In this document: positions 1,786-22,568 of the stretch, piece by piece
How the letters are laid out: each line of letters begins with the position of its first letter
How positions within the stretch are numbered: the first letter of the stretch is position 1
Origin: an uncultured Desulfobacterales bacterium
Lineage (GTDB): Bacteria; Desulfobacterota; Desulfobacteria; Desulfobacterales; Desulfosudaceae
Assembly: GCA_964432245.1 (NCBI GenBank)
Contig: CAYSMV010000471.1
Coordinates: 1-28,851 of the forward strand
Length of the DNA stretch: 28,851 nt
Reading direction: 5' to 3'
Notes under the pieces: generated by a model
Seen by the model: the letters and a program-made list of their open reading frames with translations, nothing else
The model's database searches: none
Told to the model about the DNA's origin: nothing
Program-made: the position numbers and the translations under genes

Positions 1786-2787
1786 ATGAACATCCTGGGC
1801 ATCGAAACCTCCTGCGATGAAACCGCTGCCGCGATTGTGACGGACGGTCATCATATCCTCTCCTCGGTCGTCTCTTCCCAGGTGACCATCCACCGCCCCT
1901 ATGGCGGTGTCGTGCCTGAACTGGCCTCAAGAAAACACATAGAAAATATCGTGCCGGTCGTCCTGCAGGCGATAACGGAAGCCGGGATCACGAATAAGGA
2001 TATAGACGCCCTGGCCGTTACCCAGGGGCCCGGCCTGATCGGCGCTCTGCTGGTGGGCTTTTCCTTTGCCAAGGCCTTTGCCTATGCCCTGAAACGCCCT
2101 CTTGTCGGCGTCAACCACCTGGACGGGCACCTGGCCTCGTTATTCTTAACCGGCGATCCGCCGCCATTTCCCTTTGTGGCTTTGCTGGCATCGGGTGGCC
2201 ACACGGCCATCTACCTTGTCTTGTCAGAAACAAAAGCGACCCTGATGGGGCAGACCAGGGATGACGCGGCCGGAGAGGCCTTTGACAAGGCGGCCAAAAT
2301 CATGGGCCTGGGATATCCGGGAGGAGAAGTAATCGACCGCTATGCCGGCCGGGGAAACCCGGCGGCCATAAAATTCACCCGGCCTTACCTTGATAAGAAC
2401 GCGTTTGACTTCAGCTTCAGCGGCATTAAAACAGCCGTCAGCCGATATGTTCAGTCAATAGGAGATAAACTGGAAGCGGCTATCCCGGATATCGCGGCGG
2501 GGTTCCAGGAAGCGGTGGCGGACGTGCTGTGTTACAAGCTGATTCATGCCGCCGCCGTCAAGCAGGTTCGTCATATCGCCCTGGTCGGCGGGGTGGCGGC
2601 CAATTCCCGGCTGAGAAAAAAAATGAGCGGCCAGGCGGCGGAACGCGGATTGACGCTGCACATTCCGCCGATCGAACTCTGCGGCGATAACGCCGCCATG
2701 ATCGCGGCCGCCGGCTTTTACCGCCTGCAAAACGGCGATTCTCTTCCGCCGGAAAGTGATGTCTATTCCCGGGTAAACCTTTCTTAA
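1786..2787 (+). CDS. tsaD: tRNA N6-adenosine threonylcarbamoyltransferase TsaD
   Basis: GIETSCDETA, VNHLDGH, SGGHT, DDAAGEAFDK, CGDNAAMI motifs. Confidence 0.98.
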   Translation: MNILGIETSCDETAAAIVTDGHHILSSVVSSQVTIHRPYGGVVPELASRKHIENIVPVVLQAITEAGITNKDIDALAVTQGPGLIGALLVGFSFAKAFAYALKRPLVGVNHLDGHLASLFLTGDPPPFPFVALLASGGHTAIYLVLSETKATLMGQTRDDAAGEAFDKAAKIMGLGYPGGEVIDRYAGRGNPAAIKFTRPYLDKNAFDFSFSGIKTAVSRYVQSIGDKLEAAIPDIAAGFQEAVADVLCYKLIHAAAVKQVRHIALVGGVAANSRLRKKMSGQAAERGLTLHIPPIELCGDNAAMIAAAGFYRLQNGDSLPPESDVYSRVNLS

Positions 2788-2863
2788 GACAGCGGGCACA
2801 CCGAACAGCCAAGATATGTAAGGCGGTGAGAACCATTCACTGTTTCAAGTAAGGCTCTAAATT

Positions 2864-3070
2864 TTACTCCTGTTTTTTCACAGAATTTGTGCGGATTACC
2901 CCACTTGTTTTCTGGTAATATTCCGACGTCCTTTTGGCTGCAGTAATTTTGCCTAAACCCAATTTTAAATTATCGTATATTTTCTCGCATCCATCACCTT
3001 TTATTTCCTTTATCGTTGACTTAATACTTCCGCTCCGCCCAATAACGAATTCTATAACTTTTTTTTCCAT
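2864..3070 (-). CDS. DUF2997-like small protein
   Basis: IEFVIGRSG...IKGDGCEKI...LGKI...TSEYYQ pattern; last gene of AAA/DUF1257 operon. Confidence 0.75.
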   Translation of the reverse strand: MEKKVIEFVIGRSGSIKSTIKEIKGDGCEKIYDNLKLGLGKITAAKRTSEYYQKTSGVIRTNSVKKQE

Positions 3071-3074
3071 TGTT

Positions 3075-3452
3075 CTACCCCCAGGAAGTGGCTAATAATC
3101 GAATGGTTCCGTCTTCCTGCGTTGTAACAGATGAAACCTGATATTTCATAGCTCGGACTTTCTTTTTAACGGCCGCGACACTGTACTGCTGCCGCACCTT
3201 GTTCTTAAACGAACTGTCCCTTAAAAACCGCCAATCGCTGTCACCCACCAGTTCCAATTCCCCGCTACTACTGTTTTTTACGATTCGGATTTCCCGGTTA
3301 TATATCATAGTCTTGGCCACCTCTTTTTTTACCGAACGGCCACGTGGGGAATCCGCCGATTCCCTTACAGCAAATCCCATGCTCTGTATGGCTTCTCTCA
3401 AAAGGCCGATATCTGTGACACCCTGAAGCTTAGAATAGATTGTCATTGACAT
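3075..3452 (-). CDS. DUF1257 / Ycf35-like protein
   Basis: LLREAIQSMGF...LELVGDSD...VRQQYSVAAVKKK...QEDGTIRL pattern; AAGGGAG RBS before ATG 3452. Confidence 0.75.
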   Translation of the reverse strand: MSMTIYSKLQGVTDIGLLREAIQSMGFAVRESADSPRGRSVKKEVAKTMIYNREIRIVKNSSSGELELVGDSDWRFLRDSSFKNKVRQQYSVAAVKKKVRAMKYQVSSVTTQEDGTIRLLATSWG

Positions 3453-3472
3453 GATTCTGTCTCCCTTTTGGA

Positions 3473-3700
3473 TTATCCGCAATAAATGCGGCTGTGATTA
3501 TCAACTCTGACCGGGAAAAACTGTTTTGCGTTTACCGCGTCCCAGATCTCTAAAACCAGGGGCGTGGCGGCCGGATCGATCCACTCAATCTCCACACTGC
3601 CATCCCGGTGAATAATTACCTCCTGAAAAACTTTTCCTATGCATCTTTCGTCTCTTGAAATAACCGCCGCCGGCATTTTTATTTTTTTCCGTTCGATCAT
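3473..3700 (-). CDS. hypothetical 75-aa protein ending in YCG
   Basis: AAGGAG RBS; co-oriented inside the operon; EVIIHRDGSVEIE segment. Confidence 0.65.
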   Translation of the reverse strand: MIERKKIKMPAAVISRDERCIGKVFQEVIIHRDGSVEIEWIDPAATPLVLEIWDAVNAKQFFPVRVDNHSRIYCG

Positions 3701-3747
3701 CTTCTATCTCTCCTTTTTAACTGTTATTTATCCAGCCCGGATTAAAA

Positions 3748-5364
3748 TTACCCTTGTTCCCGTATGGTCATAATTTTCCCTGCTTTACCTTGCCGCCACT
3801 CGCTCCGTTGCATCTGCACGATATCCTCGGAGGCCGGTCGTGCTCTTGTCGACGCCCATTCCTTAAGTTGTTGAATATCTTCTGCCATGGTGATGGAAAG
3901 TGGTACCTGATTTTCTATGGCCCTTAACACATCAACAGTTGTCATTTGGTGGCCGTTATCAAAAGCCTCGTAAAGACCTGCGATAATGGCCTGTTCAATC
4001 TCAGCTCCGGAAAACCCGTCTGAGAATTCAGCAATCTGTCGGATATTAAAATCATTCGGATTTTGCCCTTTATTCTTCAAATGGATAGAAACAATTTCCT
4101 CCCGTTCACCCAGACCGGGCAGATCAATAAAAAAAATGTCATCCCAGCGGCCCTTACGAAGCATTTCCGCCGGCAACACTTCCACTGAATTGGCCGTGGC
4201 TACCACAAAGACAGGAGCTGTTTTCTCCTGCATCCAAGTAGCCAGAGAAGCGAAAACCCTGGCCGCGGTACCTGCATCTGAATCCATAGAACTGTTAACA
4301 CCGGCCAGGGCTTTTTCAATTTCATCGATCCAGAGAATACAGGGAGATAAGGCCTCAGCCGCCTTTAATGCCTGCCGGGTACGTTCCTCAGATCCCCCCA
4401 CCTGACTTGTAAACAGGCTGCCGGTATCCAGCCGCAACAGTGGAACTTGCCATAAAGCAGATATCATCCGGGCAGCCAAACTTTTTCCACAACCTGGTAT
4501 ACCCAGCAGCAAAATACCTTTAGGTGTAGGCAGGCCATAGGATTTTGCCCTGGCTGAAAAACCGAGCCGCCGCTGTAACAGCCATTTTTTTAAAAGAGAC
4601 AATCCTCCCGCATCAACTTGGGTCGCCACTTCTACCCATTCCAGTGCGGCAGACATTTTGAGAAGGTTTTTCTTGCTGTCAATAATTGCCCTGATAATGT
4701 CCTCATGGGTAATGAATTGGCCGCTGGCCACTAAACCGGAAAGGCCGCTTTCATATTGACTCATGGTGAGCCCCTGCCCGGCGGTTGCGATTTGTCCAAA
4801 ATCTTCATCAGTTAGGGGCGGCCGAATACTCAATCTTGTTCTACTTAAAATGGTTCTGGCATGTGCCTCCATTTCCTTGCGGGTCGGCAGCGGAAAATCA
4901 TAACGCCAGATCTCATGAGCCAACGATTGTGGCAACATTGTTAATGGTGCCAGGATAATAATGGAACTGTCCTGTTTTTTCAGAATTGTTTTCAGGTCAC
5001 GTAAATGTCTGCGGATCAATCCGTCTTGTAAATATTCGTGAAAATCGAGGAGCAGAAAAACAGCGCCCTGTTTAGGCATGTGAATATCCTTGATCTGCCG
5101 GAGTATTCCTGTTGGATCACGGTAATCAGCATTCGCCCGGCCATGAACGATTTCCGGAACAAGCTCTTTTGTTTGACAAAAATCAACCGTCCACAACCCT
5201 TCACTGATGGTATGGCACCACATTTTCCGGCAAATTTTGATACAGCAAAGTTCAATGGCCTTGATCACCCGTTCCTCTTCTACGCTGGTGATATAAAGGA
5301 CTGGTGTGTTGGCCTTCAGGGCCGTTAAAATTGGCTGGATATGGTTTGTTTCAATATCGTTCAA
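3748..5364 (-). CDS. Ycf46-like tandem AAA+ ATPase (degenerate N-terminal and active C-terminal AAA domain)
   Basis: N-terminal LYITSVEEERV and FLLLDFHEYL; Walker A GIPGCGKS, Walker B ILWIDEIEK, RKGRWD; TTG start. Confidence 0.9.
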   Translation of the reverse strand: MNDIETNHIQPILTALKANTPVLYITSVEEERVIKAIELCCIKICRKMWCHTISEGLWTVDFCQTKELVPEIVHGRANADYRDPTGILRQIKDIHMPKQGAVFLLLDFHEYLQDGLIRRHLRDLKTILKKQDSSIIILAPLTMLPQSLAHEIWRYDFPLPTRKEMEAHARTILSRTRLSIRPPLTDEDFGQIATAGQGLTMSQYESGLSGLVASGQFITHEDIIRAIIDSKKNLLKMSAALEWVEVATQVDAGGLSLLKKWLLQRRLGFSARAKSYGLPTPKGILLLGIPGCGKSLAARMISALWQVPLLRLDTGSLFTSQVGGSEERTRQALKAAEALSPCILWIDEIEKALAGVNSSMDSDAGTAARVFASLATWMQEKTAPVFVVATANSVEVLPAEMLRKGRWDDIFFIDLPGLGEREEIVSIHLKNKGQNPNDFNIRQIAEFSDGFSGAEIEQAIIAGLYEAFDNGHQMTTVDVLRAIENQVPLSITMAEDIQQLKEWASTRARPASEDIVQMQRSEWRQGKAGKIMTIREQG

Positions 5365-11576: not shown

Positions 11577-12171
11577 TTAAACTGCGTTTTTGAACTGTGT
11601 TCTAATCATCTTATCAAGCTCAGCCAGATAAGAGCGGCCATACGGCCCATTCTCAAGGCCCTGAACCAGATGCTCCGGAATATCCTGAACAATTTCCCGG
11701 CAGCATGATCCCGCCGCCGGCGCAATGGTCGCCACCGTGTCGGTATCCCCGCCCCAAGCAATGCTGCTTTTCAGTATGGCGGAAAGGGAATCGTTCCGCA
11801 TCAGCGATGTAATGGCCGCGCGCACGCTCATCCAGCCCTTTGAGCCGACCTCACCCTGCCATGGCTCGTTCCATTGCCCCGGCACATGCCGGCAGATAAA
11901 ATCCGCCAGAATACCCTTCTCTCTGGTCGCGATGAAACACCTCGACAAACCGGGAGGCGATATTTTCCGGAGTCCAGTCGACCCGCTCCACGACCAGCTC
12001 GGCAACCGCCAAGCTCATCTGCGTGTCATCAGTATACGCGCCGAGCTTATGACGATGCGTCGGATGACGAACGTAGGCTGACAAATCATTATGCCGCGAT
12101 ATAAAACTCCTGTCCCTGACATATTCAAATCCCGCGCCGTACGCATCGCCAATGGCCAGTTCCACAAGCAT
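11577..12171 (-). pseudogene. ADP-ribosylglycohydrolase (ARH/DraG family), internally deleted and frameshifted
   Basis: N-terminal half: AIGDAYG, YTDDTQM, REGYSGGFY; C-terminal half in another frame: GSKGWMSVRAA, GGDTDTVATIA; the middle catalytic region is missing. Confidence 0.88.
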
Positions 12172-14315: not shown

Positions 14316-14843
14316 TCATTCATACAAAAATCCCGGAATCCATAAATGCTTTTGCCCCGTTCTGTAGGTAAAGGCCTCTTTAACCGGGTCATTCAGCGCT
14401 ATGACGCCTCTGGCCTGTCCGGCAGCCGCGATACAATCGGCGTGGATAAAAAATTCCAGGCCGGTTAACTTTATTTCAAAGCAGATCTCTATATCCTCAA
14501 CGAATTTTGATATGGCCGGCAGCACGGCGCTTTGCAGATAGTCAACCGGCGTGTACCAATATTGGCCAAAAAACAATTTTTTGAGGGCCGGCCCAGCGGG
14601 CGCACTTTTATGAAATATTACCTCAAAACAAGGCACCGGTTCTTTCATTGTTTTCCTGATAAAATTTTCAAACATTTCCCTGGTCCGGGAGAGCGAACTG
14701 ATGGTTATTTCAAACGTCATGACATCAGAGAACTGGCCGCCTCTTTTTATTTTTGTGGCCAGATAAAGATCTGCCGGAAGTCTTTTACCCCAGGGCAACA
14801 TATACTCCAGAAATTCAATGCCGCCTGTTTCCATTTCTATCAT
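14316..14843 (-). CDS. hypothetical protein
   Basis: AGGAGG RBS 7 nt before ATG 14843; protein-like composition; no family recognised. Confidence 0.65.
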   Translation of the reverse strand: MIEMETGGIEFLEYMLPWGKRLPADLYLATKIKRGGQFSDVMTFEITISSLSRTREMFENFIRKTMKEPVPCFEVIFHKSAPAGPALKKLFFGQYWYTPVDYLQSAVLPAISKFVEDIEICFEIKLTGLEFFIHADCIAAAGQARGVIALNDPVKEAFTYRTGQKHLWIPGFLYE

Positions 14844-15135
14844 TGGTTCGCCTCCTTGTAGGTGCATATTGTCAGACTTTTACCCGCAGGCCGGTTCAAA
14901 AAATGATCGGATAAAAATTATGCCTCCCTGTAATATTAAAGACGGATCAGAATGATATATATGACAACGATAAAAAGCCATCGATAAAATAATTGTGTAG
15001 AACAGACAGGGTAATTGACATAAAATTTCATTTTTCCCGTTTATAGATATATTATGACCAATCCATAAAAAATAATACTGTGTTTCGTTATTATTCCAGG
15101 GATGATTTGTTCTTGATGCCGGATCGGTGGGCCTG

Positions 15136-15170
15136 TGTCGCAATTCGTCATCCCGCCAAGTGGAGCGAAA
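15136..15170 (+). repeat. 35-bp imperfect direct repeat, copy 1
   Basis: TGTCGCAATTCGTCATCCCGCCAAGTGGAGCGAAA. Confidence 0.8.
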
Positions 15171-15299
15171 CGGTGCCCGACCTGACGAAGCAAGCCCCGC
15201 TTAAAAACGGCATGATGGACAATAATCCTGAACTAAAATAATAGCTGGCATGCAATTTGAGAGTAAACACATGACATAACACTGAAGGTTAAACAAATG

Positions 15300-15981
15300 A
15301 AAAACATTGCAGAAATTGCGATTGACCCCGACCTGTCCAATGAAACCGGCAAAGGTTTCATGGCCAGGGGGCGACCGGAGGTAAGCAGCCTGACGAATAG
15401 TGTCCGGCGTTTACACCGGTTAAGGCGTGAAGACAGCCGCCGTGGTTCTTTGACAGACAGCTTAGTTGCAGCAGTAAAGATGAGACAGAGTAGCATCAGA
15501 CGTGCTCGATTCCGCTTGAATATAAACGTGTTCCCGGCAGTTGCCGCGGATATGAAGCCTTTTGACGCTACCCCCGTTTTCACGGACACGTTGAAAACGG
15601 GCAGCCAGCCGTCCCCGTCGTTCCATCCCTGTATGGGAACAATTGCACGGCCGGCTTACAGACGGTGCCAGTTCAGCGATTTCTCCGGCGGGAGCGATCG
15701 GGCACCGTGCCCGGCATCCACTCAAACCGCCAAGGATGCCTTTGGGCGGGCCTTCTCACGGCTCTCTATTTGTTCTGAATCGTCGCATTTAACCTGGAAT
15801 CAGGTTCAGGGGTCGGCTATTTGCCCCGTGTTCAGATTATCCCCGTAACAGGGTGCTGAAACGCCGCTCCCCGGACTTGAATTCATCGACGGGAAGCGGC
15901 AAGCAGCACGCACTCTGTCTTGGCCAAATAAGGGCCGGAAGGACAACAGGCATCATTTACATCCTTCCGGCTTTTATTTTT
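15300..15981. ncRNA. candidate large structured non-coding RNA (family unassigned)
   Basis: Seven stems found by eye, including a three-way junction and a compound long hairpin; overlapping ORFs look spurious; ends in a terminator-like hairpin. Confidence 0.45.
15934..15981 (+). terminator. intrinsic terminator-like hairpin
   Basis: GCCGGAAGGA-N18-TCCTTCCGGC followed by TTTTATTTTT. Confidence 0.6.
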
Positions 15982-16084
15982 AAAATTACCGTCTGCCGTC
16001 CTTAAACAAAATGAAAAACAATGCGTTTTGTGATACAAAATAACAGCCGCAAAAAAAAAACGTTATGCCCGACCTTGAAGGCCA

Positions 16085-16118
16085 TGTCGTAATTCGTCAT
16101 CGGCCAAGTGGAGCGAAA
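16085..16118 (+). repeat. direct repeat copy 2, followed by degenerate REP-like sequence
   Basis: TGTCGTAATTCGTCATCGGCCAAGTGGAGCGAAA; downstream CTGGATTC...GGAATAAC resembles the CTGGATTC...GGAATGAC hairpin at 6734-6761. Confidence 0.75.
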
Positions 16119-16229
16119 AATAGACGAAACTTCGTATATGAATCCGAGAATTAACTGGATTCTGATTTTCATCGGAATAACAAAACAACTTCAAACCGGA
16201 CTTTTTTTATAAATTCATAGCTTTTTTAG

Positions 16230-19200
16230 ATGACAGATCCGACCTCATTTAAAGACACCCGGCTCTGGCTGGCGCTGAAGGGATCCACGCCGGAAATTTT
16301 ATCCTGCCTGGATCAGCTCAACACCCTATCGGAGCTTTCCGTGGAAGAGCGTATGCCTTTTCTGGCGCGACTGCTGCCCTTAACCCGCCATGAGAACGCC
16401 CGGATCCGGAAAGCGGCCTTTCAGGCCTTATCAGGCGTGGCCGGTTATACCGGCCTGCAGACCCTGCTGACAGGCTGTTCCGATGCCGAACCGGAGACCC
16501 GGCAGGAAGCGCTGCTGGGTTTTCACGAATCCTGTCAGCATGACCCGAACCAGTGGATACTGGCCCTGTTTCATCCCGATGCGGACATGCGGCTTCTGGC
16601 ATTGGGGCAGAGAATACCCCGCGGAACAGAAGACCTGTTACTGGCCATCCTGCTTCTGTCAGCAGACCCGGCCTCCCAGATCCGCGTTGAAAAACATTTA
16701 AAGAACCATAACATACCGGTGGTGCATCTGCACTTACTGCTAAGGCTCCATAACAGCGGCCATGTTTCCACAGAAACGGCCAAGGCCCTGATTACCAGTC
16801 TTAATTGGACTTATTTGTTTGAAATTATCGACCTGCGTCACACAGATCTTACAGACATCCCTGACTACGCGTATTCTGCCGAAGAACCGCCCGAGCACAC
16901 GCCCCCGCCCCTCAGCGTGAACACCGCACCCCTGGCCTATCTCATCAGCCTTTTCTGGGAAAATCCCGCTGAAGAGACTGAACAGGACCAGGAAGAAGAG
17001 CCCTCGCCGCCCGAGGATTTCTGGAAAAAATTACACCGCTGCCCATCCATCTTCGATGGGGCAAGGTACGATCTTATCAAGGCCATTCATGCCGTTGCCG
17101 CCCACAAAAAATTCTGGATCCAGCCGGCGGCAGATACGCTGACAATGATCAGCATCCATGCCCTGGCCGACGAGCGCATCCCCCCTGAACTTCGGCGAAA
17201 ATCAAGCCTTACCATTATTAAACAGGCCGGAAATATAGAAAAAGACAGTCTTAAAACGATTAAGAAGATACTCAGGAACAAAATCTGTTTGGATGATTCT
17301 GGCCGACCGAACCTGACGGTTATCATCAGTGTACTATTAAGACTGGAACGCGCCGCCTCCGGCAGACCGCCTGACCCATACCGCATTTTGCTGAATTTAT
17401 TCGGTCTGGAGCCGATTGTCGACGCCGCAGTTCGCCAACCCCGGCTGGCAGGCTATCTGTTAATTCTGCCCGCTTCCCAGAAGAGCTGGTCAAGAAGGCT
17501 GATTTACCGCCGAATTAAGGACCATCCGCAAATCCCCGGGGCTTTGCTATATTGCGCCGTTATTGCCGGGACACTGCCCAGTCAATTGGGATTTCTGGCA
17601 GAATTAGACCCCGATATTCTCTTTAACATCTGCGAAGAGATATTTACACAGGAAGTCAGGCAAGAGATTCTCCTGTCCCGGCGAAAACTCCAGAAAACGG
17701 CTGAAATCATTGCCAACAAAATGACCGCTGAACAGGTTATCCCCATTGTCAGGCTCTGGTTTGACGTCCACTTACAGAAAGAAAGCTATTTCGGCCAGGA
17801 ACTGCTGGCCGATCTCGCGCGGGAAATATCAACCGACGCATTTCTGAAAGAGACAAAATCAGCCTCCCGCGAAGATCTGATAAAATTGCTGACATTAATT
17901 CCATGCTGCCCGGGCTTTCCTGTCGGTAAAGAGAACGCCCTGGCCATGGAACTCAAGCACCATCCGGATCCGTCTGTGGAGCGATGGTGCGCTGAGCGCG
18001 TCCTGAAAACTGATAAAAACGCCCGGGAGGATACTGAGGTTGACCCGTCCGCCCTGCTGTCGGACCAGGAAAAAAACAAGATTGTCTCTGCCGGCGACCT
18101 TGAGCTGAACGATCTCCTCCAGCCGGCTCTCAGGCACCAGCGGCAGGGCCTCTGCCGGACCTTGCTGGCGCGCCCGGCTCCTTACAGAGAGTCCGTTGAA
18201 GTCTGCGCCGCCGCCCTGAAAAGCCTTGATCCTCTGGAAGAGATAGATGCCGTGTTTCACCGGTATGGAAACAGCACCCCCTCTTTCCTGGAAAAACTGG
18301 ACCTTCTGATGGTCGGAAACAGCCGCCTTCCGGAATCGCTGTTCGGCAACTGCTTTCTATGCCTGTGGGAAGAACATTGCTTTGCCGCCGCCGGACAGAT
18401 AGAAAGCCTGCCCGGCGGTTTTACAGTTTTTATTGAAATCGGGGATAATCTGCGATCCGCGCCGATCAGGGATGTCATGTGGCTGACGCTGAAATACCTG
18501 GTGAGCATGTGGCGATTTCGCGACCTTGACAAACTAAAATCGATATTCACGCCGGATTTTGCGCACAAAATGGTGGACCATCTCACGGAAGGCAATGAAC
18601 CCGCGGCTAAAATCCTGATCAGAGCCTTTGAATCCGGTCTGCTTCCCTCACCAAGTATGACGAATGTCTCTCCGCGCGTTCGCTCCGAAATCCAGGATTA
18701 CCCGCCGAACATTCGTAAAATTCTAATGCCGTGGATTGACAGTACTGGGATCACGGGCAATTCCCTGCGGCTGACCGGAAAAAAGGACGAGCCTTCTAAA
18801 GAGATCACTCAAAAAATAACCGGGAGTATGGACACACAGTTTCTGCTCGGCTGCTGTCTGCATGCCAATGGCGGTGTGGTCAACGAGGCGGTCCTGCGCA
18901 TCATTGAGCTGGAAACGCCGCTCACAGGCCTGGCGCAACTGATGATCCGCGACCCGGCGCCTGACAGCATCGGCATTCTGACCGAGTCCATCAGCCTCTG
19001 GCCGGAAGGAGAAGCCCTGTCTATTCTGGAAAATGCCATCCCCCTGGCAACTACCCCGCTTGTCTCCCGCTTTAAGATCACTCTGGCCATGCTTGAGCGG
19101 GGATGCCGGCAATATGAGAAGCTGATATTTGAAATCCTGAACACCGAAACCGATTCTTTCTGGTTTCAGAAAAAAGACTGGGAGCGCCTCCTGAAACTGG

Positions 19201-21329
19201 GCCTTGATAAATCAACGCTGGTTGAAACCTGTGTCATCTCGCCGCAGCCCGTTATGTATCAGGAAGCAGTGCAGATCTTAAAGTTCAGCATTCGCATACC
19301 CCCGGACCGACGGATTAAGGCCCTGCGGTCATTTCTTGACCTGGGACGCAACCGTAAGCACACGGTCCGGCTGGAGGCCGCCCTCACCCTGGGACTCCTG
19401 GGTTGTCCGGATGGCTGGCCGATTATACTGACAGCCTTGCTGGCAGGTGAAATCGAGGGTGAAAAAACTATTGCATTTATTCTCGATTTGCCGGGTCTGC
19501 ATGAAGAAATGATTGAATCCGCGCTGATTGCCGGGGCTCATTTTTTCCCCTCCCGCTTGCTGACCGGCTTTTTAAAAAAGTGCTCCGCGCCATTGCTGAA
19601 AACCATTATCAGAACAACCAGAGATCCGGAATTGCGCCAGGCGGCCATCAACCACATGATCAAGGATGACCGGCACAACCCGACGATACTGCATTTAAGT
19701 AACATCTGCAAAGAGGGCATGCAGACCGGATTTGCCTTAACCGGCAAGCGCTTTCAGGTAAAAATGCTGGAAACCGGCGAGATCGGCTATACCCGCCTGG
19801 AGGGAAATGTTATCTACGCCACCCCCATTCCGGTAATCAGCCAGGCGCCTGAAGGCAGCCGGATCGTGCGCGGGGTGATTCTCCACGAAATCGGCCACCA
19901 CCTCTTTCATGCCGGCAAAGAGAGCCGCGAGGCCCATGAGGCGGCCGTGAATGAAAAAATAACGGACCTGTTGAATATCGTAGAAGATGAGCACCTGGAG
20001 CGTAATCTGCGCGTCAGGAACGAAACCTGGGGCGATGATTTTAAAAAGCTCGCCGCCTACGCCTTTCAGCACGCCGATCGTGAGGCCGATGCCGGCGACC
20101 TGCTCCGGGCCCTTGAGATCGACGCCTTTCCCGTTTTAACCGGAACCGTCATTAAAGTGGGCGTAAAAGAGGGCTGCGTCTCCTTCAATGCCGGCGGCAT
20201 CTGGCAGAAACTGGAAGAAAACCAAAACAGTTTTTCCCGGTTCATGCGCGCCCTTCGCATGGGACTCGGCAATCGTTATAACGACCCTAAAGTGGCCGCC
20301 GGGCTGAATCTGTTTAAACGCGGTTTCAAAAAGGCCTCTCCTGAACGGCTGCTTGAAATCGCGCGGGAGCTGAAAAAAATCTTCGGCCCGCGGGCCGCTC
20401 TATTGGAGAACCTGTCCTGGGAGGGCCTCTCTGAAGACGCGGAAACCCTGCTGATCGGCAGTGACGGCATTACCCAGGAAAATATTGACCGGGCCCTGGC
20501 CCGGACAGAAAAAAACGACAGTCTTTCCGGGAAAAAGGTAATAATTTACAATCAAAGCAAGGATACCTATTTTGAAAAAATTACCCGGATTGTCCGGCTG
20601 CCTTTTGACCTGAAAGCACATCAGGAATATGCCCAAAAAACCATGCGCGCCTCACGGCAGCTGCGTCCTTTTTTCCGGAACCTGGGGGTGCGATATCTGA
20701 AAGAACGCTTCCGCCTTTCCGGACGGCGGCTGGATCGCTCCCGCCTGCAGAAAATGGTTATCTACGGGGAACCACGGCTCATGATCGCCCGGATCATCAA
20801 ACCCGTAACCGATCTGTTCCTGAGCATTATTATCGACTGCTCCGAATCCATGAACCACCACAAAAACATTGAAAAAGCCAAACAGTTCGGCACCCTGTTA
20901 GCCGAGTCAACAGTCGGGGTAGACGGCCTTGATGTCCGCATTTTCGGCTTCACCGACCGGGTTATATACGATGCCGGCACACCCTTCCGCTGCGCCGTGT
21001 CGGCACTGGAAGCGGAAAACGGAAATAACGACGCGGCCGTCCTGTGGCACGCGGCCCGAATCGCTTCCGCCAGCCGCCGCGCGGTCAAGCTCCTGGTCAT
21101 GATCAGCGACGGCGCGCCGACCGCCTGCAGCACAACCGCCCTGCGCCTGCTGGTGCAGAGCCTTGCCCGGCAGCAGATATGCTGCGCCCAGATCGCACTG
21201 CGGAAATTAGACCCGGAAGATATCTGCTTCCCCTGGTACATCGTGCTGGACGAAGACGACCTTGCTTCATCCGTGAGTAAGTTCGGAGCAATTATGATAA
21301 AACTGGTAAAGCAGGCCATGGGAGGGTAG
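16230..21329 (+). CDS. 1699-aa HEAT/alpha-solenoid + zincin metallopeptidase-like + vWA protein (MoxR partner)
   Basis: HEAT-like repeats (HENARIRKAAFQAL, DAEPETRQEAL); VILHEIGHHLFH (H1219) plus LLNIVEDEHLE; MIDAS IIDCSESM (D1536) and MISDGAP; no clear SD. Confidence 0.87.
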   Translation: MTDPTSFKDTRLWLALKGSTPEILSCLDQLNTLSELSVEERMPFLARLLPLTRHENARIRKAAFQALSGVAGYTGLQTLLTGCSDAEPETRQEALLGFHESCQHDPNQWILALFHPDADMRLLALGQRIPRGTEDLLLAILLLSADPASQIRVEKHLKNHNIPVVHLHLLLRLHNSGHVSTETAKALITSLNWTYLFEIIDLRHTDLTDIPDYAYSAEEPPEHTPPPLSVNTAPLAYLISLFWENPAEETEQDQEEEPSPPEDFWKKLHRCPSIFDGARYDLIKAIHAVAAHKKFWIQPAADTLTMISIHALADERIPPELRRKSSLTIIKQAGNIEKDSLKTIKKILRNKICLDDSGRPNLTVIISVLLRLERAASGRPPDPYRILLNLFGLEPIVDAAVRQPRLAGYLLILPASQKSWSRRLIYRRIKDHPQIPGALLYCAVIAGTLPSQLGFLAELDPDILFNICEEIFTQEVRQEILLSRRKLQKTAEIIANKMTAEQVIPIVRLWFDVHLQKESYFGQELLADLAREISTDAFLKETKSASREDLIKLLTLIPCCPGFPVGKENALAMELKHHPDPSVERWCAERVLKTDKNAREDTEVDPSALLSDQEKNKIVSAGDLELNDLLQPALRHQRQGLCRTLLARPAPYRESVEVCAAALKSLDPLEEIDAVFHRYGNSTPSFLEKLDLLMVGNSRLPESLFGNCFLCLWEEHCFAAAGQIESLPGGFTVFIEIGDNLRSAPIRDVMWLTLKYLVSMWRFRDLDKLKSIFTPDFAHKMVDHLTEGNEPAAKILIRAFESGLLPSPSMTNVSPRVRSEIQDYPPNIRKILMPWIDSTGITGNSLRLTGKKDEPSKEITQKITGSMDTQFLLGCCLHANGGVVNEAVLRIIELETPLTGLAQLMIRDPAPDSIGILTESISLWPEGEALSILENAIPLATTPLVSRFKITLAMLERGCRQYEKLIFEILNTETDSFWFQKKDWERLLKLGLDKSTLVETCVISPQPVMYQEAVQILKFSIRIPPDRRIKALRSFLDLGRNRKHTVRLEAALTLGLLGCPDGWPIILTALLAGEIEGEKTIAFILDLPGLHEEMIESALIAGAHFFPSRLLTGFLKKCSAPLLKTIIRTTRDPELRQAAINHMIKDDRHNPTILHLSNICKEGMQTGFALTGKRFQVKMLETGEIGYTRLEGNVIYATPIPVISQAPEGSRIVRGVILHEIGHHLFHAGKESREAHEAAVNEKITDLLNIVEDEHLERNLRVRNETWGDDFKKLAAYAFQHADREADAGDLLRALEIDAFPVLTGTVIKVGVKEGCVSFNAGGIWQKLEENQNSFSRFMRALRMGLGNRYNDPKVAAGLNLFKRGFKKASPERLLEIARELKKIFGPRAALLENLSWEGLSEDAETLLIGSDGITQENIDRALARTEKNDSLSGKKVIIYNQSKDTYFEKITRIVRLPFDLKAHQEYAQKTMRASRQLRPFFRNLGVRYLKERFRLSGRRLDRSRLQKMVIYGEPRLMIARIIKPVTDLFLSIIIDCSESMNHHKNIEKAKQFGTLLAESTVGVDGLDVRIFGFTDRVIYDAGTPFRCAVSALEAENGNNDAAVLWHAARIASASRRAVKLLVMISDGAPTACSTTALRLLVQSLARQQICCAQIALRKLDPEDICFPWYIVLDEDDLASSVSKFGAIMIKLVKQAMGG

Positions 21330-21443
21330 AAAGACTGTCAGAAATGCACGCTTTTTGATATATGAAAAAATTCGGGGGGATACATTCCTAGTTTTAACTG
21401 TATACGTGCACGTGCACGAGTCCGCGTAAAGGAGAAACCACCT

Positions 21444-22568
21444 ATGTCATCCAGATTGAAAACCGAGGATATTGCCGTCGGCCAGTTAATGGAGACCACC
21501 TTCTGGGTTAATCCCGTCAAAGAATCCAAGTTCCGGTTCCGCGCCACCCACTTAAACGGCAAAAAAGCCCCCAAGGTCATTCTCAGCGACGACCCGGGGA
21601 TTAGGCCGGGCATCCCCTGCCTGGTCAAGATCGAAGCCATCAGGAAAGCGGAGCGGGATGACCGCGGCCAGATCGAGGTAAGCCTGCAGCACCTGCTGGA
21701 TTTAAACCTCAAGGGAATTTATCTGGATCCCGTCATCAGTATTAAACTTCAGGTCCTGCTGGAAAGCGGTTTGAATATCCTGCTGGACGGCCCCCAGGGA
21801 TGCGGCAAAACCGTTCTGGCCCGGAGCATCGCCGAATCCCTGGGCATGGAATTCATTTTTTACAACTGCAGCGCCGTGATCGAAGCCACCGACTTTCTGG
21901 CCAGCCTGCAAGTCGTGTCCGAAGAGGGACGGACGGTCACCCGGTTCATCAAAACCGATGTCCTGAAAGCCCTGGAAGAAGCCTGTGAACACCCCCGGAG
22001 AAAATACCTGATATTCCTTGACGAGTTCAACCGCTGCCCGGAGAGCGCCCGGAACGCGCTCATGCCGGTGCTGGACCACACCCGGCGGATCTTCAACCCT
22101 GTCAGCAACACTTTCCTTCAGATCGAGGACAACATCCAGTTCATCGCGGCCGTTAATCGCGGCAACGAATTTTCCGGCACCTTCGGCATTGACGCCGCCC
22201 AACTGGACCGGTTCGCCCCCCTGCAGATGGATTATCCGCCGGAAGAGGCGGAAGTGGACCTGATGACGGAAAGGCACCCGGAAGTCAGCAAAACGCGGAT
22301 CAAACAGGTGGTGAAGATCGCCAACCTCGTCCGCGCCAGCCATGAGCTCAACAAAGGCCTGTCGGTGCGGGCCGTGGATGAAACCTGCATATACCTGAAA
22401 CATCCCCTGCTGGAAAATAACACAGCTAAAATGCTTCCGGAAATCCTGAAGTCCGCTTTCTGTGGCCGCTTCCCCGGCCGCTGGGACGACCCCGATTCCG
22501 ATGCCGGCCTGGTCTGGAGCATCATCAGGGGAAGTATAGAAAAGTCCGACAAATGCTGCCGCAGGTAA
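21444..22568 (+). CDS. MoxR-family AAA+ ATPase with ~95-aa N-terminal extra domain
   Basis: Walker A GPQGCGKT, Walker B IFLDEFNR, AAVNRG, AQLDRF; AAAGGAG RBS. Confidence 0.93.
   Translation: MSSRLKTEDIAVGQLMETTFWVNPVKESKFRFRATHLNGKKAPKVILSDDPGIRPGIPCLVKIEAIRKAERDDRGQIEVSLQHLLDLNLKGIYLDPVISIKLQVLLESGLNILLDGPQGCGKTVLARSIAESLGMEFIFYNCSAVIEATDFLASLQVVSEEGRTVTRFIKTDVLKALEEACEHPRRKYLIFLDEFNRCPESARNALMPVLDHTRRIFNPVSNTFLQIEDNIQFIAAVNRGNEFSGTFGIDAAQLDRFAPLQMDYPPEEAEVDLMTERHPEVSKTRIKQVVKIANLVRASHELNKGLSVRAVDETCIYLKHPLLENNTAKMLPEILKSAFCGRFPGRWDDPDSDAGLVWSIIRGSIEKSDKCCRR

What the first reader, a model, noticed from the sequence alone, without database searches (positions are those of the whole stretch)
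15300..15981. Candidate large ornate non-coding RNA (~0.7 kb)
No credible protein lies in 14844-16229; the ORFs there are R/S/P-rich, lack motifs and overlap each other. The sequence is GC-balanced and packed with stems: ATGAAACC/GGTTTCAT (15340-15361, extendable), CCCGTTTTCA/TGAAAACGGG (15573-15601), CGGGCAC/GTGCCCG (15699-15713), GGCATCC/GGATGCC (15713-15740), TCTGAA/TTCAGA (15774-15836) enclosing AACCTG/CAGGTT and GGGG/CCCC (three-way junction), and a compound hairpin GTGCTG..GCCGCT..CCCCG/CGGG..AGCGGC..CAGCAC (15853-15909). A terminator-like hairpin follows. 15171-15180 is also complementary to 15698-15707. The size is in the range of GOLLD/ROOL/OLE-type RNAs found in mobile regions, but I cannot match it to any family. 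The terminator and A-rich loops favour the plus strand; the wobble-pair evidence is mixed.
Basis: partly seen in the sequence, partly recalled or inferred. Interest (0 to 1): 0.8.

Follow-up and report, generated by a model that had tools for sequence, protein, structure and literature searches.

The report
New folded RNA before giant-adaptor/MoxR operon
The flagged stretch holds a real, previously uncatalogued folded RNA whose about 105-base pseudoknotted core sits just upstream of a giant HEAT/zinc-peptidase/vWA gene and its MoxR ATPase in six loci from distant bacteria, so it probably controls or works with that uncharacterised machine.

Summary

- **Fold:** 15300-15981 folds far better than shuffles (z about -5.5; contig controls -2.1 to +1). 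It matches no Rfam family.
- **Homologues:** DNA and protein searches of relatives found none. They appeared only upstream of homologues of the downstream 1699-aa gene.
- **Conserved domain:** the closest locus (L016) is 77% identical over 15441-15925. Synonymous sites of the two flanking genes are saturated between the same loci (pS 0.72-0.81).
- **ORF183 is not protein-selected:** in its frame pS is 0.23 and pN 0.25, and differences by codon position are 28/32/29. Stops break the frame in L017 and L025.
- **Core:** a covariance model built from the window alone found a core (15658-15768) upstream of the giant gene in 6 of 10 loci examined.
- **Covariation:** 93.7% of cells are paired against 33-46% for slid controls. 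Thirteen of 27 pairs change on both sides.
- **Pseudoknot:** a 5-bp loop-loop pairing covaries in all seven copies.
- **Flanks:** the first 140-170 nt of the flagged interval are not conserved. The 3' domain is specific to the window/L016 clade.
- **Function:** untested. My best guess is a cis-acting leader. A stand-alone RNA partner is the main rival.

An earlier scan note (e1-981012) reported an undescribed RNA with this protein family on other DNA.

The parts
14961..14990 (+). Only sigma-70-like promoter match on the + strand between the upstream gene and the giant gene (ATGACA-18-TAAAAT). Possible start of the unit, weakly supported.
   Evidence: Two sites were found against 2.5 expected, so this is not significant on its own.
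15131..15190 (+). Degenerate copy of a dispersed REP/MITE-like repeat. It is not part of the conserved RNA.
   Evidence: Canonical copies lie on own-genome contigs C35, C334 and C407, and nine matching places were listed in relative G009.
15297..15848 (+). 183-codon ORF overlying the RNA. The frame is open here and in L016A, but there is no protein-level selection.
15441..15925 (+). Conserved RNA domain, 72-82% identical to L016 4228-4695, directly upstream of the homologous giant gene.
   Evidence: Neighbour-gene control. Changed pairs stay canonical 50% of the time against 30.5% under the null.
15482..15491 (+). 5' strand of the long-range closing helix. It pairs with 15912-15921.
   Evidence: (RNAalifold on window and L016A), and the independent folds of both sequences.
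15912..15921 (+). 3' strand of the closing helix.
15573..15601 (+). Hairpin CCCGUUUUCA/UGAAAACGGG. It is kept in L016A (with U.G pairs) and in L017 (U-A and A-U replaced by C-G).
   Evidence: helix 2: 95% paired, 5 pairs with double changes.
15603..15656 (+). Helix AGCC.GCCGU with ACGGC.CGGCU, enclosing a variable hairpin. In L016A one C-G becomes U-A and the internal mismatch is repaired.
   Evidence: (pairs 132-141 with 176-185) and direct reading.
15658..15768 (+). Core motif shared by all seven copies: P1, P2, P3/P3a and P4, plus a loop-loop pseudoknot.
15662..15708 (+). P1 (15662-15669 with 15701-15708) enclosing P2 (15677-15685 with 15692-15700). The P2 loop is 15686-15691.
   Evidence: Six of the 8 P1 pairs change on both sides.
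15687..15691 (+). Pseudoknot strand GGCGG in the P2 loop. It pairs with CCGCC at 15727-15731.
   Evidence: The pair covaries as GACGG/CCGUU, GGUGG/CCACC and GGUGG/CCAUC. None of 5000 loop shuffles kept it in all seven copies.
15709..15747 (+). P3 (GCCC/GGGC) and P3a (GGCAUCC/GGAUGCC) with the UUU bulge (invariant in all seven copies; its GCC/GG flanks differ at one base in L025). The loop carries the CCGCC pseudoknot strand at 15727-15731.
15748..15764 (+). P4 hairpin GGGCC/GGCUC followed by UCUAUUUGUU. It looks like a weak terminator here and in L016. The stem covaries in the other loci, where no U tract follows.
   Evidence: helix 10.
15769..15911 (+). 3' domain (three-way junction and compound hairpin, or alternatively one long imperfect rod). 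Conserved only between the window and the L016 copies.
   Evidence: One U-A to A-U swap in the stem 15853-58 with 15904-09.
15926..15985 (+). Intrinsic terminator: 18-nt arms (89% complementary), 18-nt loop, then a T run. L016A and L017 have a terminator at the same place with a different sequence.
16083..16190 (+). Second degenerate copy of the dispersed repeat, in the unconserved spacer between the terminator and the giant gene.
16230..21329 (+). Giant 1699-aa HEAT / HExxH / vWA protein, the gene that the RNA accompanies.
21444..22568 (+). MoxR-type AAA+ ATPase (AAA_5), the partner gene. Present next to the giant gene in all six RNA-bearing loci.

Best explanation
The region encodes a non-coding RNA on the + strand.

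**What is there.** About 485 nt (15441-15925) are kept under nucleotide-level selection. A long-range helix closes this domain and a strong intrinsic terminator (15926-15985) ends it. Inside lies a compact core of about 105 nt (15658-15768): helix P1 enclosing hairpin P2, an adjacent bulged hairpin P3/P3a, a 5-bp kissing interaction between the P2 and P3a loops, and a closing hairpin P4. This core is the only part shared by all homologues. It always lies upstream of, and co-oriented with, a giant HEAT/HExxH/vWA adaptor gene that is followed by a MoxR ATPase gene.

**How I think it works (inferred, not shown).** The core is a sensor or binding domain of a cis-acting leader. Its folded state, set by a small ligand or by a product of the operon, would decide whether transcription stops at P4 or at the downstream terminator, or reads through into the giant gene. 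The lineage-specific flanking domains would then act as variable expression platforms.

**Confidence.** That it is a functional structured RNA tied to this operon: about 0.9. The cis-regulatory mechanism in particular: about 0.45.
For: **Shown: nucleotide-level selection.** The region is 77% identical to L016. Between the same two loci the flanking giant gene has pS 0.72 and the MoxR gene pS 0.81.

**Shown: no coding signature.**
- pS 0.23 and pN 0.25 in the ORF183 frame; differences by codon position 28/32/29.
- Core conservation by codon position is 0.70/0.72/0.67.
- Stops break the frame in L017 and L025.

**Shown: conserved structure.**
- A model built from the window alone finds the motif in L016 (twice), L017, L024, L025 and L032, each time upstream of the giant gene on its strand, with E 7e-37 to 1e-8.
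- A sequence-only MAFFT alignment gives the same fold. It has 93.7% of cells paired against 33-46% for slid controls, and 13 of 27 pairs with double changes against 0-5.
- The pseudoknot covaries in all seven copies.
- Fourteen G.U cells are valid only on the + strand.

**Shown: specificity.**
- One copy in the window's genome (G000) and two in G788.
- No hit in 150 genomes of the same order.
- Present in all 6 loci where a MoxR gene follows the giant gene, and in none of the 3 loci where it does not.

**Pointing to cis action.**
- The position and orientation are constant.
- A conserved core with variable downstream parts is the usual layout of leader RNAs.
- P4 is followed by a U tract in the AT-richer loci.
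- No promoter-like site lies between the terminator and the giant gene.
Against: - There are no transcript data. No RNA run holds the locus, so the RNA's ends are inferred.
- The core lies 187-660 nt from the start codon, which is long for a riboswitch.
- The main terminator has an 18-nt-arm stem placed after a closing helix. That looks more like the end of a discrete RNA gene than like a regulated attenuator, and I found no conserved anti-terminator.
- The 245-nt spacer before the giant gene is unconserved and tolerates a repeat insertion.
- L016 has a second copy 2.2 kb upstream, ahead of small unrelated ORFs.
- Only seven sequences from six loci are available, and two of them are close paralogues.
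- The promoter evidence rests on consensus matching only.
Confidence: 0.5

Rival explanations
1. A discrete RNA of about 0.5 kb, made as its own unit or processed from a longer transcript, that works in trans with the proteins. It could be a scaffold, a client or an inhibitor of the giant HEAT/peptidase/vWA adaptor and its MoxR motor, forming an RNA-protein machine. The arrangement would resemble retron ncRNA or type III antitoxin RNAs, which travel with their protein partners.
For: - A closing helix joins the two ends of the conserved domain, and a strong terminator follows at once in the window, L016A and L017.
- The spacer before the giant gene is unconserved.
- The RNA is present only where a MoxR gene follows the giant gene: 6 of 6 loci against 0 of 3.
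- RNA, giant gene and MoxR gene occur together in the window's genome and in G788, whose order and phylum samples share no handle.
- The scan's earlier notes report other undescribed RNAs beside MoxR-vWA pairs. These are leads only.
Against: - There is no evidence of binding.
- Four of the ten giant-gene loci examined lack the RNA, so the protein family does not need it.
- Constant upstream, co-oriented placement is explained equally well by cis regulation.
- There are no tandem repeats as in ToxI, and I did not look for a reverse transcriptase.
Confidence: 0.3
2. ORF183, or a shorter version starting at Met61, is translated. The locus would then be a structured mRNA for a small basic, disordered protein, possibly a dual-function RNA.
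For: - An ORF of 183 or more codons arises in only 1.35% of shuffles.
- The same frame is open in L016A to almost the same stop, with a single 3-nt indel. The chance of it staying open after 88 random substitutions is 0.05.
- A third open version was called as protein P0122, E 1.4e-5.
- GAAGG lies 8 nt before the ATG.
Against: - dN/dS is 1.07, with synonymous sites three times more conserved than in the flanking genes.
- Conservation shows no codon periodicity.
- GC2 is 0.55 against 0.40 +/- 0.04 for the genome's genes, and the hexamer score is below 88% of shadow ORFs.
- DNA conservation continues unchanged past the stop codon.
- The frame is broken in L017 (TAG plus a 1-nt insertion) and in L025 (TGA).
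- Start and Shine-Dalgarno sequence are not conserved in L016A, and in L016 no gene was called over either RNA copy.
- P0122 could only be found because it happened to be open, so it is not independent support.
Confidence: 0.08
3. Non-functional, palindrome-rich spacer: debris of REP/MITE-type repeats that folds well by accident.
For: - Two degenerate copies of a dispersed repeat flank the region.
- Most stems are perfect Watson-Crick palindromes, and both strands fold about equally well in this one sequence.
Against: - The structured part is single-copy in the genome.
- It is conserved at 77% where neutral sites are saturated.
- It covaries across six loci.
- The repeats lie outside the conserved domain.
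Confidence: 0.03

Closest known systems
Orphan riboswitch candidates and structured leader RNAs found by comparative genomics (Breaker/Weinberg-type motifs, as catalogued in Rfam)
   Same: - A compact, pseudoknotted core of about 100 nt with covarying helices and conserved loop and bulge nucleotides.
- Always upstream of, and co-oriented with, one class of operon in distant lineages.
- The sequence downstream of the core varies between lineages.
- A hairpin with a U tract follows directly in the AT-richer genomes.
   Different: - No Rfam 15 family matches, even at E<=10.
- The distance to the start codon is 187-660 nt.
- In this clade the core is embedded in a closed domain of about 485 nt that has its own strong terminator.
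- No ligand is suggested by the gene context, because the operon's function is unknown.
   Same: - In the window/L016 clade the RNA is several hundred nt long and multi-domain.
- It is closed by a long-range helix, ended by a terminator, and of unknown function.
   Different: - It matches none of those models.
- Only about 105 nt are conserved beyond the closest relative.
- It is single-copy and tied to one operon rather than to phages, plasmids or membrane-stress genes.
- It is very rare: nothing in 400 order-level genomes by BLAST or in 150 by the model.
RNA components that travel with their protein partners (retron msr-msd ncRNA upstream of the reverse transcriptase; ToxI of type III toxin-antitoxin systems)
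   Same: A structured RNA encoded directly upstream of, and co-oriented with, the protein genes it accompanies. RNA and protein genes occur together in two genomes that appear to belong to different phyla.
   Different: - No tandem repeats.
- The partner proteins are a HEAT/HExxH/vWA adaptor and a MoxR ATPase, for which I know of no described RNA partner. This rests on my own knowledge. A full-text search for MoxR with 'RNA motif' or 'riboswitch' listed no paper containing 'MoxR' among its 15 top-ranked hits.
Cobalamin riboswitch. I considered it because other notes of this scan liken the giant protein and the ATPase to CobT and CobS.
   Same: An upstream leader position and a loop-loop kissing interaction as a key tertiary contact.
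   Different: No match to the Rfam cobalamin models at E<=10. I see no B12-box-like consensus (my reading). The architecture is different.

Membership tests
Any Rfam 15 family (including GOLLD, ROOL, OLE, HEARO, raiA, cobalamin, group II intron domains) | Scores at or above the family's gathering threshold with its covariance model | tested here: not met
   Nothing in the window. Only chance-level hits at E<=10 in 14800-16300. Nothing at gathering score in five homologous loci. One chance hit at E<=10 around the L024 copy.
Cis-regulatory leader / riboswitch-like RNA (a kind, not a family) | Conserved structured core supported by covariation | tested here: met
Cis-regulatory leader / riboswitch-like RNA (a kind, not a family) | Lies upstream of, and on the strand of, the same class of genes in independent lineages | tested here: met
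   Six loci, with giant-protein identity of 32-56% to the window's.
Cis-regulatory leader / riboswitch-like RNA (a kind, not a family) | Expression platform (terminator or SD-sequestering helix) that competes with the sensor fold | tested here: inconclusive
   P4 plus a U tract follows the core in the window and L016, and a strong terminator lies 160 nt further on. I found no conserved mutually exclusive pairing. The GC-rich loci have no U tract.
Cis-regulatory leader / riboswitch-like RNA (a kind, not a family) | Binds a ligand or protein and changes expression of the downstream genes | not testable with these tools
   Needs in-line probing or SHAPE, and reporter assays.
Protein-coding gene (ORF183) | Purifying selection on the amino-acid sequence (dN/dS well below 1, excess change at third positions) | tested here: not met
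   dN/dS 1.07 and differences 28/32/29, against 561/380/959 for the giant gene and 35/27/208 for the MoxR gene.
Protein-coding gene (ORF183) | Reading frame kept open in homologues | tested here: inconclusive
   Open in L016A and in P0122. Truncated, without an ATG, in L016B. Broken in L017 and L025.
Protein-coding gene (ORF183) | Codon and hexamer usage like the genome's genes | tested here: not met
Dispersed repeat (REP/MITE) | Many copies in the genome and its relatives | tested here: not met
   The structured domain is single-copy. Only the flanking 35-60-nt elements are dispersed.
Type III antitoxin RNA (ToxI-like) | Tandem direct repeats processed into units | tested here: not met
   No tandem direct repeats in 14800-16300.

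The most novel reading that the evidence does not exclude
The RNA is not a mere switch but a working part of the machine. Its pseudoknotted core would be bound by the HEAT arm or the vWA domain of the giant adaptor and remodelled, or released, by the MoxR ATPase. That would make this the first RNA-protein version of a MoxR/vWA (CobS/CobT-like) system. Together with the scan's other notes of undescribed RNAs beside MoxR-vWA pairs, it would point to a general and overlooked link between this ATPase family and structured RNAs.
Probability: 0.25. Interest if true: 0.85.

Novelty: new variant of a known kind. Interest (0 to 1): 0.66.

Why it matters
MoxR ATPases with vWA adaptors are widespread, and most have no known client. 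The giant HEAT/HExxH/vWA family here has hundreds of members and no known function.

A conserved, pseudoknotted RNA that accompanies the gene pair gives a concrete experimental handle. Finding what the core binds would show either what the operon responds to or what the machine acts on.

It also adds a well-supported new family to the catalogue of bacterial structured RNAs. It was found only through synteny, after direct DNA and protein searches had failed.

Finally, it is a clear example of a long open frame lying over an RNA with no protein-level selection. Gene callers annotated that frame as a protein in the window's assembly.

Tried and rejected
**Searches that found no homologue of the region:**
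- BLAST of 14868-16229 against the window's genome, 40 relatives and 400 genomes of the order. It returned only a dispersed 40-nt repeat and chance matches. L011 and L012 were inspected and rejected.
- Plasmid and phage collections.
- ORF183 as a protein: the word-indexed search found only itself. phmmer against 1.84 billion representatives found itself plus P0122. A profile of five translations added nothing.
- Back-translated scans of metagenome and genome contigs found nothing.

**Searches with limited yield:**
- An exact-pattern scan of metagenome contigs gave one true hit, L021, which is a twin of L016 copy B, and three chance hits in coding DNA.
- Reads from the two runs that hold the locus are identical low-depth DNA contigs, so there is no polymorphism and no RNA evidence.
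- The giant gene was not found in 40 relatives or in 400 genomes sampled from each of two phyla.
- Look-ups for P0021, P0025 and P0122 returned no DNA.
- The four non-held loci could not be used as genome handles.
- Model R3 of the 3' domain found nothing outside the window/L016 clade.

**Ideas considered and dropped:**
- An integron attC or attL/attR reading of the flanking direct repeats. They are diverged copies of a genome-wide repeat.
- A decayed pseudogene. No frame shows one.
- Another genetic code. Neighbouring genes read normally under table 11.
- A cobalamin or metal riboswitch. No Rfam match.

PADLOC and NCBIfam gave no informative name for the operon.

Full report
**1. The observation**

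The interval between the upstream gene (14316-14867, minus strand) and the 1699-aa gene (16230-21329) holds no Pfam-recognisable protein.

The fold is far better than chance:
- 15300-15981 gives z -5.7 on + and -5.4 on -.
- 15300-15850 alone gives -4.9 on + and -2.95 on -. Eleven equal-sized windows of the same contig gave -2.1 to +1.0.

Rfam 15 gives nothing at gathering score and only chance hits at E<=10. The terminator at 15926-15985 is real.

**2. The ORF**

ORF183 (15297-15848) is unlikely to arise by chance. An ORF this long appears in 1.35% of dinucleotide shuffles.

It does not look like a gene of this genome:
- GC by codon position is 0.50/0.55/0.59, against 0.58/0.40/0.63 for the genome's long genes.
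- Its codon and hexamer scores fall below 88-92% of spurious shadow ORFs.
- It has no Pfam hit. Apart from itself, its only hit is one weak match, P0122 (E 1.4e-5), in 1.84 billion representatives.

**3. Finding homologues**

Direct DNA searches failed in the window's genome, 40 relatives, 400 genomes of the order, plasmids and phages. The only recurrent match was a 40-nt element at 15131-15173 and 16083-16120. It is a diverged copy of a dispersed REP/MITE-like repeat. This explains the direct repeats that bracket the region.

The flanking genes are also missing from relatives, so I searched for the giant protein instead. It belongs to a large family of proteins of about 1700 aa.

The closest member is P0003, 56% identical, on locus L016. 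It carries DNA 77% identical to window 15472-15939 directly upstream of its own giant gene, and a second, 5'-truncated copy 2.2 kb further up. The next member is P0004, 38% identical, on L017. It has an 82%-identical 71-nt match in the same place.

**4. RNA or protein?**

I compared the window with L016 in three places.

| Region | pS | pN | Differences by codon position |
|---|---|---|---|
| Giant gene | 0.72 | 0.27 | 561/380/959 |
| MoxR gene | 0.81 | 0.08 | 35/27/208 |
| Candidate region, ORF183 frame | 0.23 | 0.25 | 28/32/29 |

So every position of the region is held about equally, at a level where neutral sites nearby are saturated. That is selection on the nucleotide sequence, not on a protein.

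Further points against a protein:
- DNA identity continues unchanged past the stop codon.
- The frame is interrupted in L017 by a TAG plus a 1-nt insertion, and in L025 by a TGA inside the core.
- Conservation in the seven-sequence core shows no codon periodicity: 0.70/0.72/0.67.

What remains unexplained is that the frame stays open in L016A to nearly the same stop, with one 3-nt indel. By simulation the chance of that is 0.05. I keep translation in this clade as a minor rival.

**5. Structure and family**

A covariance model built from the window sequence alone (R1, 15566-15765) matched:
- L016 twice and L017;
- two loci that BLAST had not seen, L024 (63 bits) and L025 (39 bits);
- later L032 (51 bits).

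Each match lies upstream of the giant gene on its strand. L022, L023, L030 (Lignipirellula cremea) and L031 had none.

The shared part is 15658-15768. A MAFFT alignment of the seven cores, made without reference to structure, gave the same fold with RNAalifold. On that alignment:
- 93.7% of cells form standard pairs, against 33-46% when partners are slid by 1-3 columns;
- 13 of 27 pairs change on both sides, against 0-5 in the slid controls;
- none of 500 shuffles reached the observed covariation score.

Fourteen G.U cells would be A.C mismatches on the other strand, so the + strand is the RNA.

The P2 loop (GGCGG, 15687-15691) is complementary to the P3a loop (CCGCC, 15727-15731). The pairing is kept in all seven copies through GACGG/CCGUU, GGUGG/CCACC and GGUGG/CCAUC. 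None of 5000 loop shuffles kept it in all seven.

The core model R2 finds one copy in the window's genome, two in L016's genome, and nothing in 150 other genomes of the order.

**6. The larger domain in this clade**

Between the window and L016A the conserved block runs from about 15441 to 15925. Its ends pair with each other, 15482-15491 with 15912-15921, in the joint fold and in each independent fold.

Helices outside the core also show compensation. At 15603-12 with 15647-56, one C-G becomes U-A and a mismatch is repaired. At 15853-58 with 15904-09, one U-A becomes A-U.

I tested the window's own minimum-free-energy structure on L016A. Of the pairs that changed, 50% remain canonical, against 30.5 +/- 6.2% for random placement of the same substitutions.

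A model of the 3' domain finds nothing in L017, L024, L025 or L032, so that domain is clade-specific.

A terminator follows the domain in the window, L016A and L017. Its sequence differs between them.

**7. Context**

The RNA is present in all six loci where a MoxR AAA+ gene directly follows the giant gene. It is absent from the three loci where none does. L023 is cut at the contig end.

The order and phylum samples drawn around the window's genome and around L016's genome share no handle. From this I infer that the two genomes belong to different phyla. The giant gene was not found in 400 sampled genomes of either phylum. The MoxR proteins of the two loci are nevertheless 85% identical. Together this points to horizontal spread of the RNA, giant gene and MoxR gene as one unit.

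PADLOC and NCBIfam do not name the system.

**8. Mechanism**

Shown: a conserved, pseudoknotted + strand element tied to this operon type.

Inferred: what it does.

For a cis-acting leader:
- The position and orientation are constant.
- A conserved core with variable downstream parts is the usual leader layout.
- P4 with a U tract follows right after the core in the AT-richer loci.
- No promoter-like site lies between the terminator and the giant gene.

For a discrete RNA partner:
- The closing helix is followed by a very strong terminator.
- The distances to the start codon are long, 187-660 nt.
- The spacer is unconserved.
- L016 carries a second copy ahead of other small ORFs.

I put cis regulation at about 0.45, an RNA partner at about 0.3, translation of the ORF at about 0.08, and accident at about 0.03.

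**9. Novelty**

No Rfam family matches any of the loci. A full-text search for MoxR with 'RNA motif' or 'riboswitch' listed no paper containing 'MoxR' among its 15 top-ranked hits.

Other notes report different RNAs beside MoxR-vWA pairs. I could not compare sequences, so I treat these as leads, not as support.

Noticed in passing
window 15131-15190 and 16083-16190; own-genome contigs C35, C334, C407; loci L002-L006: A dispersed repeat of about 130-140 nt with long inverted ends. Each end holds a hairpin of the type CGTCATCCCGGC...GCCGGGATCCAG, around a central TATAAAAT...ATTCATTTTT. Nine matching places were listed in one related genome. The two window copies are degenerate and more like each other than like the canonical form.
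   Followed up: partly
L016 2109-2451 (copy B) and 2572-4006: The closest homologous locus has a second, 5'-truncated copy of the RNA, about 90% identical to copy A. It has its own promoter-like site and sits ahead of three small ORFs. Two of them give weak hits to the 5-fold beta-flower family (PF21785), below its cut-off.
   Followed up: partly
window 11854-12171 (-) and L017 14389-14694: A 106-aa ORF in a poorly coding stretch of the window (about 11.4-13.3 kb) is 67% identical to an ADP-ribosylglycohydrolase-like gene. In L017 that gene lies a few kb downstream of the homologous giant-gene/MoxR pair, next to a Macro/ADP-ribosylglycohydrolase gene. This may be a further shared neighbour of the module.
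   Followed up: no
L025 about 2790-2990: The spacer between the RNA core and the giant gene holds two arrays of short TTAGC-containing repeats (GCGGTTAGCTATTAGC-like units) in inverted orientation around a central segment.
   Followed up: no
window 15171-15180 versus 15698-15707, and 15663-15669: The upstream repeat copy contains CGGTGCCCGA. This duplicates the 5' strand of core helix P1 and could compete for its 3' strand. About one such 10-mer is expected by chance, and I did not check whether homologues have it.
   Followed up: no
window 16230-22568 compared with L016 5001-11290: The MoxR protein is 85% identical between two genomes that appear to belong to different phyla, while the giant adaptor is only 57% identical. 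The constraint on the two partners is very unequal, and the module looks horizontally transferred.
   Followed up: partly
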